NCBI RefSeq assembly: GCF_051903065.1 | Contig: NZ_CP178438.1 | Direction: 5' to 3' (one strand) | Length of the DNA: 64,000 nt | Source: Escherichia coli | Lineage (GTDB): Bacteria > Pseudomonadota > Gammaproteobacteria > Enterobacterales > Enterobacteriaceae | Part shown: piece by piece, positions 39,140 to 40,308 of the stretch | Numbering within the stretch: position 1 is the stretch's first letter | Layout of the letters: each line of letters begins with the position of its first letter | The notes under the pieces: model-generated | What the model was told of the DNA's origin: nothing | Databases searched by the model: none | What the model saw: the letters and a program-made list of their open reading frames with translations, nothing else | Position numbers and translations under genes: made by a program

Positions 39140-39811
39140 TTAATAACCAATTATTTCTCGCACATACTTCAAATGTAGCAGTGCCCGTTGCAAGGCATTG
39201 TCTGCATTTCCTGCACGAATCGCCTCAATAATTGCTTTATGCTGTTGATTAAGTTTGATAAGTACATTCTTATCGCCGGAACGTTTATCCAGCCCAGCAT
39301 AAGGTATATTGACACGCTGCTCCCAAAGCATCCGTGACATATCTAACAACACCCTATTATGGCTGGCTTCAGAAATGGTCAGATGAAACTGCTTATCAAG
39401 CATATAAAATTCAGCCACATTATTTTCATGAATGGAATTTTCCATTCGGAAATGGAGTAACTCAATTTTATTAATTATTGTTTCATTATTAGCCAGTGCT
39501 GCAAGTCGGGCACAATGACTATCAACTAAATCACGGACATAAAGAATTTCTTCGATAGTGTAATCGACTGGAGAGTGTTTATTATCACTGACAATAATCC
39601 CATTACCAGACTGAATAATAATCCAGCCAGATATCTCAAGAACAATAAGAGCTTCTCTCAGCGATGAACGACTAACTCCCAGTTGTTTCGCCAGCTCACG
39701 CTCTGGAGGTAAAAAACTACCTGGCGGAAAGACATTATCATTGATGAGCTTAATAATAAGATTCGCTATCTTTTGATAGAGCCTTTCCTGTTTAATTTCT
39801 GGAATTAACAT
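39140..39811 (-). CDS. GntR-family transcriptional regulator (FadR/FCD subfamily)
   Basis: 223-aa ORF with N-terminal winged HTH ...ERELAKQLGVSRSSLREALIVLE... and helical C-domain; AT-rich. Confidence 0.75.
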   Translation of the reverse strand: MLIPEIKQERLYQKIANLIIKLINDNVFPPGSFLPPERELAKQLGVSRSSLREALIVLEISGWIIIQSGNGIIVSDNKHSPVDYTIEEILYVRDLVDSHCARLAALANNETIINKIELLHFRMENSIHENNVAEFYMLDKQFHLTISEASHNRVLLDMSRMLWEQRVNIPYAGLDKRSGDKNVLIKLNQQHKAIIEAIRAGNADNALQRALLHLKYVREIIGY

Positions 39812-39957
39812 GTGCCTCCCGCTCGCTTTTATCGTTAGTTATCTGACGAATTATCATATCATACTTGGTTCGGATCTACTGGTTTCGCGTGACAATGACG
39901 AAAAATCAGCAGTTTGTCATCAGTAGCAGAAAGACGTCTATCCGGTTTCGATCCTGA

Positions 39958-40308
39958 CTATTGGCGTAATAAAACGCCCTCCCTTTCTATCAATAGGTTA
40001 TAGTCAGGATAAAAATCATATTCGTCGACGCCAATATTGTCCGTGACCGAAAACCTTTCACTGACTAAGGCTTGGATACGCAAACCAGCCATTTTGTTAC
40101 GTAGATTTTCGAGAATGATTTTAGCGTGTGATAATTCTGTTTCGACAAACAAAATAATAAATCCTTCGGCACCATAGAGGAAAACATAAGCACTGATGAG
40201 AATATGCTCACAAATCATCGAAGAGAAATTTTTCTGTGTATTAACCTCGGAATTATGTCTATAACGATTATTAATTTTCTTGAGGATAATCAATATCCAG
40301 CATGGCAA
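39958..40308 (-). CDS. Hypothetical protein (TTG start); possible degenerate GGDEF-domain remnant
   Basis: Segment ...YGAEGFIILFVETELSHAKIILENLRNKMAGLRI...SVTDNIGV... loosely resembles the GGEEF-to-C-terminus part of diguanylate cyclases; weak. Confidence 0.25.
   Translation of the reverse strand: MPCWILIILKKINNRYRHNSEVNTQKNFSSMICEHILISAYVFLYGAEGFIILFVETELSHAKIILENLRNKMAGLRIQALVSERFSVTDNIGVDEYDFYPDYNLLIEREGVLLRQ

What the first reader, a model, noticed from the sequence alone, without database searches (positions are those of the whole stretch)
39140..40308. AT-rich GntR-family regulator next to a small TTG-initiated ORF with a degenerate GGDEF-like segment
The GntR gene is intact, but its only neighbour is a 116-codon ORF with a weak start whose sequence (YGAEGF...ILENLRNKMAGLRI...SVTDNIGV) loosely resembles the distal half of a diguanylate cyclase domain with a degenerate GG(D/E)EF motif. 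Both are bracketed by IS66 fragments. This could be the wreck of a regulator/c-di-GMP module, but the GGDEF assignment is weak.
Basis: inference. Interest (0 to 1): 0.3.

Follow-up and report, generated by a model that had tools for sequence, protein, structure and literature searches.

The report
Dead cyclase remnant beside displaced regulator
The small ORF is the mutated, truncated tail of an oxygen-sensor-type c-di-GMP synthase gene, and the intact regulator beside it most likely belongs to a sugar-acid transporter/dehydrogenase pair that mobile DNA has pushed 10 kb away; this is ordinary gene decay in an E. coli genomic island.

Summary
Window 39140-39811(-) is an intact 223-aa FadR-subfamily GntR regulator. 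The 116-codon TTG ORF (39958-40308, -) lies inside a 506-nt pseudogene (39906-40411).

IS1-bounded cassettes in about 50 E. coli plasmids and chromosomes carry a 90%-identical, contiguous module: lysE, a 467-aa DosC-type cyclase (globin + DosC middle domain + GGDEF), gntR, Zn-dehydrogenase, MFS transporter. Mapped onto that gene, the window keeps only codons ~298-467. It carries an in-frame stop and three frameshifting indels. GGEEF has become GAEGF, the I-site RSSD has become LISA, and dN/dS is 0.69 (regulator 0.23).

So the GGDEF guess was right. The "regulator/c-di-GMP module" reading is only partly right. In Citrobacter and Salmonella the regulator is linked to the dehydrogenase and MFS genes, with no cyclase. 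Both genes are intact in this window at 26617-28903, together with a conserved palindrome (TGTGGTC-N9-GACCACA, 26579-26601). A 10.16-kb block splits them from the regulator. That block begins with a group II intron fragment inserted right after their shared terminator.

All 160 island-type E. coli genomes show the same truncation and split. This is ordinary decay of a known kind, of low interest.

The parts
26435..26616 (+). Promoter/operator region of the mfs-adh pair. Homology to the plasmid-type module starts at 26435. It contains the palindrome TGTGGTCAGGCCGCTAGACCACA at 26579-26601, about 15 nt upstream of the ATG.
   Evidence: blastn against plasmid L001. The palindrome arms are identical in the plasmid, 4 Citrobacter loci and S. 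diarizonae while flanking sequence diverges. It is the only exact match in the window and in L001.
26617..27906 (+). Intact MFS transporter of the D-galactonate-transporter subfamily type, 429 aa.
   Evidence: 97.9% aa identity to the plasmid copy. Pfam MFS_1 and NCBIfam TIGR00893 (332 bits, below the 395 cutoff) on the plasmid copy. dN/dS 0.04.
27878..28903 (+). Intact Zn-dependent dehydrogenase (RspB-like), 341 aa.
   Evidence: 96.5% aa identity to the plasmid copy. ADH_N and ADH_zinc_N domains. Best solved relative is RspB, 4ilk, E 2e-60. dN/dS 0.09.
28930..28959 (.). Hairpin plus T-run: a bidirectional terminator shared by the convergent adh and gntR genes in the intact module. The module is broken immediately after it.
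   Evidence: Terminator scan hits on both strands. The plasmid sequence is contiguous across this point.
28962..29403 (+). 5' fragment of a group II intron. It starts GTGCGCC two bases after the T-run and is truncated by IS600.
   Evidence: Rfam group-II-D1D4-3 at 29071-29222, 89.3 bits, E 1e-16. A related full-length intron with ltrA also sits just after a terminator in strain M15.
28960..39119 (.). 10.16-kb interrupting block. It holds the intron fragment, IS600 orfB (29447-30265), an IS30-type transposase (30350-31501), a 1165-aa autotransporter (32848-36345), IS3-family elements, an IS66 fragment (38672-38926) and an IS4 fragment (38871-39017).
39140..39811 (-). Intact FadR-subfamily GntR regulator, 223 aa (RefSeq WP_000906844.1).
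   Evidence: Pfam GntR + FCD. 92.4% aa identity to the plasmid copy, dN/dS 0.23. 74-77% identity to the Citrobacter and Salmonella copies.
39812..39905 (-). Intergenic region with the regulator's own upstream region. About 60 nt next to the ATG, including ATGATATGATAA, are conserved with Citrobacter and Salmonella.
   Evidence: Alignment A2.
39906..40411 (-). Pseudogene: the 3' third (codons ~298-467) of a DosC-type diguanylate cyclase, covering only the GGDEF domain.
   Evidence: Alignment to the plasmid gene. The frame-corrected translation scores 66.9 bits on Pfam GGDEF. Its best solved relative is the DosC GGDEF domain, 4zve, E 4e-22.
39958..40308 (-). The 116-codon TTG ORF of the finding. 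It is the longest open stretch left inside the pseudogene, running from just upstream of the +1 insertion to a stop created downstream of the 5-nt deletion.
40387..40389 (-). In-frame stop (CAA to TAA at codon 306 of the intact gene).
   Evidence: Codon-wise alignment; sequence.
40370..40372 (-). 1-nt deletion (codon 312), a frameshift.
40286..40286 (-). 1-nt insertion (after codon 339) that restores the original frame.
40159..40173 (-). Active-site motif GGEEF changed to GAEGF (GGT GCC GAA GGA TTT).
40189..40200 (-). Inhibitory-site motif RSSD (RxxD) changed to LISA.
39980..39981 (-). Site of the 5-nt deletion (codons 442-443), which shifts the frame and creates the ORF's stop at 39958.

Best explanation
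The locus is one end of a horizontally acquired five-gene cassette that has fallen apart inside an E. coli genomic island at tRNA-Arg(CCU)/yfdC. The intact cassette reads lysE, dosC-like dgc, gntR, then convergently adh and mfs.

Shown:
1. The cyclase gene lost its 5' 63% (globin sensor, DosC middle domain) and lysE at a breakpoint at 40411. What remains is a dead GGDEF-domain pseudogene, and the 116-codon ORF is simply its longest open stretch.
2. The regulator, the MFS transporter and the Zn-dehydrogenase are all intact and under purifying selection.
3. The regulator was separated from adh-mfs by a 10.16-kb block. That block starts with a group II intron fragment placed right after their shared terminator and was later filled with IS elements and an autotransporter gene.

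Inferred:
- The regulator is a FadR-type sugar-acid repressor. Its target is the mfs-adh promoter, through the conserved palindrome TGTGGTC-N9-GACCACA. It can still act in trans over 10 kb.
- The pair imports and oxidises an aldonate. L-gulonate or L-galactonate is likely, because the Citrobacter version continues into uxuA and a uxuB-like gene. The product would feed the core Uxu/Uxa pathway.
- The cyclase remnant does nothing.
For: Pseudogene:
- Homology to the 467-aa plasmid gene starts at codon ~298.
- Q306 is a stop. There are -1, +1 and -5 nt indels.
- GGEEF is now GAEGF and RSSD is now LISA.
- 50 of 171 aa differ. dN/dS is 0.69, not significantly below 1 (p 0.26). The regulator is at 0.23, with the same dS (0.19 vs 0.17).
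- The full-length relative has Protoglobin + DosC_2nd + GGDEF, and its best solved matches are the E. coli DosC domains.

Module:
- Plasmid L001 3485-6006 matches window 26435-28959 (93.3%). L001 6001-7297 matches window 39120-40411 (90.4%). The plasmid is contiguous across the break.
- MFS dN/dS is 0.04 and ADH 0.09.

Regulator's partner:
- Citrobacter (4 species) and S. diarizonae have GntR + ADH + MFS, with UxuA and a UxuB-like gene added in Citrobacter, and no cyclase or LysE.
- The palindrome is conserved upstream of mfs in all of these loci. It is present exactly once in the window and once in the plasmid locus, and not upstream of dgc, lysE or gntR.
- The regulator's proximal upstream region is conserved to Citrobacter, so it has its own expression signals.

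Split:
- Terminator hairpin; Rfam group II intron hit.
- Class C introns insert after Rho-independent terminators (PMC1702495, PMC3522654).
- All 160 island-type genomes are split, and only the ~50 plasmid-type copies are contiguous.
Against: - No expression or binding data exist. The operator assignment rests on conservation and on the general GT...AC character of FadR-family sites (my own knowledge), and the 9-nt spacer is unusual.
- No sigma-70-like promoter was flagged directly upstream of gntR by the simple scan.
- The substrate is guessed from gene content. The dehydrogenase is below NCBIfam equivalog cutoffs (242 vs 376 bits).
- The regulator persists intact in strain ZF8-1, which has lost mfs-adh. 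Its retention could therefore be neutral rather than selected.
- Several genomes have IS1 inside mfs, so the whole module may be on its way out.
- The right-hand junction of the interrupting block is not explained by the intron.
Confidence: 0.85

Rival explanations
1. One reading: regulator and cyclase are two halves of one regulator/c-di-GMP unit. Either the GntR protein controls the cyclase gene or is co-transcribed with it, so that a metabolite signal gates c-di-GMP synthesis, and the locus is the wreck of that unit.
For: In the intact cassette, dgc and gntR are co-oriented and only 94 nt apart. lysE lies upstream in the same direction, and no terminator-like site was found between dgc and gntR. 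This adjacency is shared by the two 10%-diverged lineages, with similar dS across all genes. The intact cassette also carries an EAL phosphodiesterase fragment beyond mfs.
Against: The dgc-gntR adjacency is absent in the Citrobacter and Salmonella loci, where unrelated genes occupy that position (HI0933-like flavoprotein, choloylglycine hydrolase). The operator-like palindrome occurs only upstream of mfs. The regulator's own upstream region predates the junction with dgc. The regulator stayed intact while the cyclase decayed.
Confidence: 0.1
2. The 116-aa (or PGAP's 86- or 119-aa) ORF is expressed as a degenerate GGDEF mini-protein with a new role, such as nucleotide binding or interference with DosC dimerisation.
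For: PGAP annotates it as a CDS ('hypothetical protein' or 'nucleotidyl cyclase domain-containing protein'). The remnant is >=99.6% identical in 160 genomes. Shigella DGC pseudogenes with nonsense mutations upstream of the GGDEF domain still make c-di-GMP from internal starts (PMC11327459).
Against: Here the lesions lie inside the GGDEF domain. The ORF starts after the DID metal-binding segment, which is encoded out of frame. The active site is GAEGF and the I-site is lost. The C-terminal helices are frameshifted away. dN/dS is 0.69, not distinguishable from neutrality. The start is TTG and no promoter stands out above chance (7 sites found vs 4.9 expected). The high identity among genomes reflects recent spread of the island, since the flanking IS junk is equally conserved.
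Confidence: 0.03
3. The regulator is itself a functionless leftover that has merely not yet been hit by mutations. The whole module (regulator, mfs, adh) is neutral cargo in a decaying island.
For: ZF8-1 keeps the regulator without mfs-adh. IS1 insertions in mfs and partial deletions occur in several genomes. The island integrase is disrupted and the island is saturated with IS elements. Polarised amino-acid changes in MFS (7 vs 0) and ADH (7 vs 3) fall mostly on the island branch.
Against: All three genes are full length despite ~0.2 substitutions per synonymous site since the split from the plasmid type. Over the same time the adjacent cyclase fragment collected a stop and three indels. dN/dS is 0.04-0.23. 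Regulator changes are symmetric between branches, 5 vs 5.
Confidence: 0.2

Closest known systems
E. coli DosC (DgcO/YddV), the globin-coupled oxygen-sensing diguanylate cyclase
   Same: The intact relative of the remnant has the same three-domain architecture: Protoglobin, DosC middle domain, GGDEF. All three DosC domain structures are its best or near-best solved matches. The remnant's best solved match is the DosC GGDEF domain.
   Different: It is an accessory paralogue carried on an IS1-bounded cassette, not the core dosCP operon. In the window only the GGDEF part survives, and it is inactivated.
FadR-subfamily GntR regulators of sugar-acid and organic-acid operons (UxuR, ExuR, LldR, PdhR, GlcC)
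   Same: N-terminal winged-helix GntR domain plus C-terminal FCD domain. The best NCBIfam similarities are to LldR and UxuR. It is linked to a transporter/dehydrogenase operon that has a GT...AC-type palindrome upstream.
   Different: It is not an equivalog of any named regulator: 106 bits vs cutoff 311 for LldR, and 97 vs 442 for UxuR. The effector is unknown. Here its presumed operon is 10 kb away.
E. coli aldonate loci of the lgoR-lgoT-lgoD (yjjM/yjjL/yjjN) and rspAB type (from my own knowledge, not tested against those sequences except RspB)
   Same: The same trio of a GntR-type regulator, an MFS aldonate-type transporter and a Zn-dependent dehydrogenase. The dehydrogenase's best solved relative is RspB.
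   Different: It is a distinct, AT-rich, horizontally acquired set. In Citrobacter it is fused to uxuA and a uxuB-like gene. Substrate specificity is untested.
Degenerate DGC pseudogenes of Shigella (PMC11327459)
   Same: A GGDEF-encoding gene disrupted in an IS-rich Escherichia/Shigella genome, with internal ORFs left behind.
   Different: The Shigella cases keep an intact GGDEF domain downstream of the nonsense mutation and still make c-di-GMP. Here the domain itself is frameshifted and its catalytic motif is mutated.
Bacterial class C (IIC) group II introns that home to sites after intrinsic terminators (PMC1702495, PMC3522654)
   Same: The intron 5' end (GTGCG) lies 2 nt after a hairpin plus T-run. 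A related full-length copy shows the same placement.
   Different: Only ~440 nt of the 5' part remains, and the reverse transcriptase gene is gone. The class was not determined phylogenetically.

Membership tests
GGDEF diguanylate cyclase (Pfam PF00990) | Significant match of the encoded protein to the GGDEF profile | tested here: inconclusive
   The ORF as it stands scores 20.8 bits, E 3.6e-4, below the gathering score of 23.8. The frame-corrected conceptual translation scores 66.9 bits, E 2e-18, over profile positions 4-161 of 161. Ancestry is certain, but the present ORF does not pass.
GGDEF diguanylate cyclase (Pfam PF00990) | Intact GG(D/E)EF catalytic motif | tested here: not met
   GGEEF in the intact relative is GAEGF in the window (40159-40173).
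GGDEF diguanylate cyclase (Pfam PF00990) | Uninterrupted reading frame over the whole domain, including the N-terminal metal-binding DxD segment | tested here: not met
   A stop at codon 306, plus -1, +1 and -5 nt indels. The LDIDY segment is out of frame with the 116-aa ORF.
DosC-type globin-coupled sensor cyclase | N-terminal globin sensor and DosC middle domain | tested here: not met
   Both are present in the plasmid relative (Protoglobin 6e-10, DosC_2nd 4e-30). Both are absent from the window: homology ends at 40411, codon ~298, and tblastn finds no N-terminal part anywhere in the window.
DosC-type globin-coupled sensor cyclase | GGDEF domain closest to DosC among solved structures | tested here: met
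   4zve (DosC GGDEF) is the top hit, E 4e-22, for the corrected remnant.
GntR family, FadR subfamily | N-terminal GntR winged-helix domain plus C-terminal all-helical FCD domain in an intact protein | tested here: met
   PF00392 at residues 11-74 (69 bits) and PF07729 at residues 88-214 (79 bits), both above gathering scores. The ORF is full length and colinear with the plasmid, Citrobacter and Salmonella copies.
GntR family, FadR subfamily | Equivalence to a named regulator (LldR, UxuR, ExuR, PdhR, GlcC, FadR) | tested here: not met
   All NCBIfam equivalog scores are far below their cutoffs.
GntR family, FadR subfamily | Binding to a palindromic operator and release by a small-molecule effector | not testable with these tools
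   Only a conserved candidate operator was found.
Group II intron (class C placement) | Ribozyme domains I-IV recognisable, 5' GUGYG, insertion just 3' of an intrinsic terminator | tested here: met
   Rfam RF02001 89 bits. GTGCG at 28962 lies 2 nt after the T-run of the hairpin at 28930-28955.
Group II intron (class C placement) | Domains V-VI and an intron-encoded reverse transcriptase; class C by phylogeny | tested here: not met
   The fragment ends at ~29403, where IS600 begins. There is no RF00029 hit in the window. The related full-length copy has ltrA. The class was not determined.

The most novel reading that the evidence does not exclude
The intact ancestor is a mobile, IS1-bounded cassette. 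It places a DosC-type oxygen-sensing cyclase (and formerly an EAL phosphodiesterase) around a sugar-acid regulator/transporter/dehydrogenase set. If lysE-dgc-gntR is one transcript, aldonate availability and oxygen would be integrated into c-di-GMP output. The island lineage would then have discarded the c-di-GMP arm while keeping a trans-acting regulator split 10 kb from its operon.
Probability: 0.1. Interest if true: 0.4.

Novelty: already known. Interest (0 to 1): 0.12.

Why it matters
It matters little for new biology, but there are two practical points.

- RefSeq annotates the remnant as a protein-coding 'hypothetical' or 'nucleotidyl cyclase domain-containing' gene in about 160 complete E. 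coli genomes. It should be flagged as a pseudogene, and censuses of E. coli c-di-GMP enzymes should not count it.
- The case shows that a regulator which looks orphaned between IS fragments may still have its operon and operator intact elsewhere in the same island. Judging regulators only by their immediate neighbours can therefore mislead.

Tried and rejected
- I looked for a published name for this accessory cyclase (dgcX, dgcY). The papers found deal with other genes, and the E. coli census paper PMC4686209 is not held. No name could be assigned.
- I scanned one genome per species (GTDB) with the regulator as bait. Only 74-77%-identical Citrobacter and Salmonella copies turned up, so neither lineage's donor was identified.
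- I looked for an intact or uninterrupted island-type copy. There is none among 5,426 complete E. coli genomes or among the 10 contexts of the exact regulator protein.
- I tested whether the 19-26 nt before the right junction are the intron's 3' end. They do not match the related full-length intron, nor the Salmonella or Citrobacter spacers. This remains unresolved.
- I looked for the operator palindrome upstream of gntR, dgc or lysE. It is not there.
- I searched for literature linking RspB to L-gulonate. Nothing usable was held, so the substrate remains my own inference.
- The promoter scan of 38900-40700 found no enrichment over shuffles.
- I did not use the large protein searches or structure prediction, because the answers would not change the verdict.

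Full report
**1. Observation**

39140-39811(-) encodes 223 aa from an ATG. 39958-40308(-) encodes 116 aa from a TTG and contains the quoted strings.

The first is an intact FadR-subfamily GntR regulator: Pfam GntR 2.6e-19, FCD 7e-22. It has 38% GC, against 50% for the core part of the window.

The second gives only a sub-threshold GGDEF match: 20.8 bits, E 3.6e-4, gathering score 23.8.

The immediate flanks are an IS4 fragment and an IS21-family fragment, with IS66-family sequences just beyond on both sides. 'Bracketed by IS66 fragments' is therefore approximately right.

**2. What the small ORF is**

The region 39120-40411 is 90.4% identical to E. coli plasmids and some chromosomes. There the same regulator lies next to a full-length 467-aa 'GGDEF domain-containing protein'.

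That protein has the DosC architecture: Protoglobin, DosC middle domain, GGDEF. Its best solved relatives are the three E. coli DosC domains.

Base-by-base alignment and a codon-wise walk show what the window retains and how it is damaged:

| Feature | Window state |
|---|---|
| Extent | codons ~298-467 only (39906-40411) |
| Codon 306 | CAA to TAA, in-frame stop (40387-40389) |
| Codon 312 | -1 nt deletion (~40371) |
| After codon 339 | +1 nt insertion (40286) |
| Codons 442-443 | -5 nt deletion (~39981) |
| Active site | GGEEF to GAEGF (40159-40173) |
| Inhibitory site | RSSD to LISA |
| Amino acids | 50 of 171 differ |

The 116-codon ORF is simply the stretch left open between the +1 insertion and the frameshift caused by the 5-nt deletion.

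With the frameshifts corrected, the translation scores 66.9 bits (E 2e-18) over the entire GGDEF profile. Its best solved match is the DosC GGDEF domain. So the DNA holds a whole GGDEF domain, not just its distal half, and it is dead.

Selection analysis agrees. Synonymous divergence from the plasmid copy is alike in the remnant (0.19) and the regulator (0.17). dN/dS is 0.69 in the remnant, not distinguishable from 1 (p 0.26), against 0.23 in the regulator (p 3e-6).

**3. What the regulator belongs to**

The intact cassette reads lysE-dgc-gntR on one strand, convergent with mfs-adh. It is bounded by inverted IS1 copies. It is 99.9% identical over 8.08 kb between a plasmid and a chromosome, where an N-terminally truncated EAL phosphodiesterase fragment lies beyond mfs.

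A scan of one genome per bacterial species with the regulator as bait found 74-77%-identical copies in four Citrobacter species and in Salmonella enterica subsp. diarizonae. In all five, the regulator is linked to the same Zn-dehydrogenase (84-89% aa) and MFS transporter (94-95% aa). None has a cyclase or LysE gene nearby.

In Citrobacter the operon runs mfs-adh-uxuA-uxuB-like. In the cyclase position sit unrelated genes.

Upstream of mfs, a 23-nt palindrome (TGTGGTCAGGCCGCTAGACCACA) has invariant arms across all these loci, with a single spacer change in one Citrobacter locus, while surrounding sequence diverges.

Searching for it in the window gave exactly one perfect match, at 26579-26601. 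The MFS gene (26617-27906, 97.9% aa) and the dehydrogenase (27878-28903, 96.5% aa) are intact in this window, with dN/dS of 0.04 and 0.09.

The regulator's own proximal upstream region is conserved to Citrobacter, so it predates the junction with the cyclase gene. The palindrome occurs nowhere else in the cassette.

My inference is that the regulator is a sugar-acid repressor of mfs-adh acting at that palindrome, and that it still has its target in trans.

The dehydrogenase's closest solved relative is RspB. Together with the uxuA and uxuB-like genes in Citrobacter, this suggests an L-gulonate or L-galactonate-type aldonate as substrate. That rests on my own knowledge of these pathways and is untested.

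**4. How the module was split**

The plasmid sequence is contiguous across the point where the window has a gap. L001 3485-6006 matches window 26435-28959, and L001 6001-7297 matches 39120-40411.

The break lies immediately after the hairpin and T-run that terminate the convergent adh and gntR genes. The inserted DNA starts, two bases later, with GTGCGCC and matches the Rfam group II intron D1-D4 model (89 bits, E 1e-16). The fragment ends at ~29403, where IS600 begins.

A related full-length intron with its reverse transcriptase in strain M15 is likewise placed a few bases after a terminator T-run. This is the known behaviour of class C introns (PMC1702495, PMC3522654).

The rest of the 10.16-kb block is IS600, IS30, a 1165-aa autotransporter, IS3-family elements, an IS66 fragment and an IS4 fragment.

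The right-hand junction is an IS4 end plus 19-26 nt that I could not assign.

**5. Distribution**

| Copy type | Complete E. coli genomes (of 5,426) | State |
|---|---|---|
| Island-type gntR-remnant unit (>=99% identity) | 160 | always truncated and split |
| Island-type mfs-adh | 154 | several with IS1 in mfs or partial deletions |
| Plasmid-type (~90% to the window) | ~50 | contiguous, intact cyclase |

All ten sampled contexts of the exact regulator protein show the same short ORF and IS66 genes beside it.

Strain ZF8-1 is identical to the window at the locus, but it has lost mfs-adh next to an IS1 and keeps the regulator.

Polarising amino-acid changes with the outgroups gives 5 vs 5 for the regulator, 7 vs 0 for MFS and 7 vs 3 for ADH (island vs plasmid branch). 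This hints at some relaxation in the island lineage.

**6. Comparison and verdict**

The remnant descends from a DosC-type globin-coupled cyclase but fails every functional criterion of a GGDEF enzyme.

This differs from the Shigella DGC pseudogenes that still make c-di-GMP, because those keep an intact GGDEF domain downstream of the lesion (PMC11327459).

The regulator is a bona fide FadR-subfamily GntR protein, but not an equivalog of any named regulator.

Nothing here is new in kind. It is routine decay of a horizontally acquired cassette in an IS-saturated island whose integrase is itself disrupted.

The pairing of regulator with cyclase as one functional module is not supported.

The practical outcome is an annotation correction (pseudogene, not CDS), plus a reminder that the regulator's operon sits 10 kb away.

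Noticed in passing
window 28962-29403 (+): A group II intron 5' fragment (Rfam D1-D4, 89 bits) sits 2 nt after the T-run of the adh/gntR terminator and is truncated by IS600. A related full-length copy in strain M15 (L020 ~2576-4500) also sits just after a terminator.
   Followed up: yes
window 39101-39126: 19-26 nt of unassigned sequence (CGGCTATACCGGAGGTATATTTATTC) lie between the IS4 terminal repeat and the point where module homology resumes. Both edges of the 10-kb block map to the same spot of the intact module, yet this edge does not match the intron's 3' end.
   Followed up: partly
window 38481-38603 (-): A full-length match to the Rfam isrC Hfq-binding sRNA model (150 bits) lies at the 5' end of an IS3-family element (orfA ORF 38288-38635).
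   Followed up: no
window 22005-24511: tRNA-Arg(CCU) at 22005-22079 is followed by an island integrase split in two (22228-22899 and 24020-24511) by an IS with a DDE_Tnp_1 transposase (22945-23913).
   Followed up: partly
window 32848-36345 (-): A 1165-aa autotransporter with VID, PATR, pertactin-like, autochaperone and beta-barrel domains sits inside the block that separates the regulator from its operon.
   Followed up: no
window 24791-25559 and 47968-48736; L018: There are two IS1 copies. Relative to strain ZF8-1, the window retains 25559-31693 (mfs-adh, intron, IS600, IS30). It lacks ~13 kb (Ag43, yeeU/S/T-like genes) that ZF8-1 carries. This is consistent with IS1-adjacent deletions in both strains.
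   Followed up: partly
L019 18815-19648 (and L001 ~2600-3430): The intact IS1-bounded cassette carries an N-terminally truncated EAL c-di-GMP phosphodiesterase fragment beyond mfs. Its source locus therefore had a cyclase and a phosphodiesterase flanking the sugar-acid genes. No trace of the fragment exists in the window.
   Followed up: partly
window 25560-25870 (+) and 40539-40821 (+): IS21-family fragments lie outside both ends of the island-type module: an IstB C-terminus on the left (my reading of the sequence), and a transposase fragment on the right (ZF8-1 annotation). Whether they come from one element was not examined.
   Followed up: no
E. coli AP021963 and similar genomes; L003, L008: In some genomes the gntR-remnant unit is inverted relative to mfs-adh and is flanked by two IS66-family copies. 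In several genomes mfs is interrupted by IS1.
   Followed up: partly
window 41670-43346 (+): The IS66-family tnpC is split by an internal stop (ORFs 41670-42599 and 42606-43346). This element has unusually high GC (63-65%).
   Followed up: no
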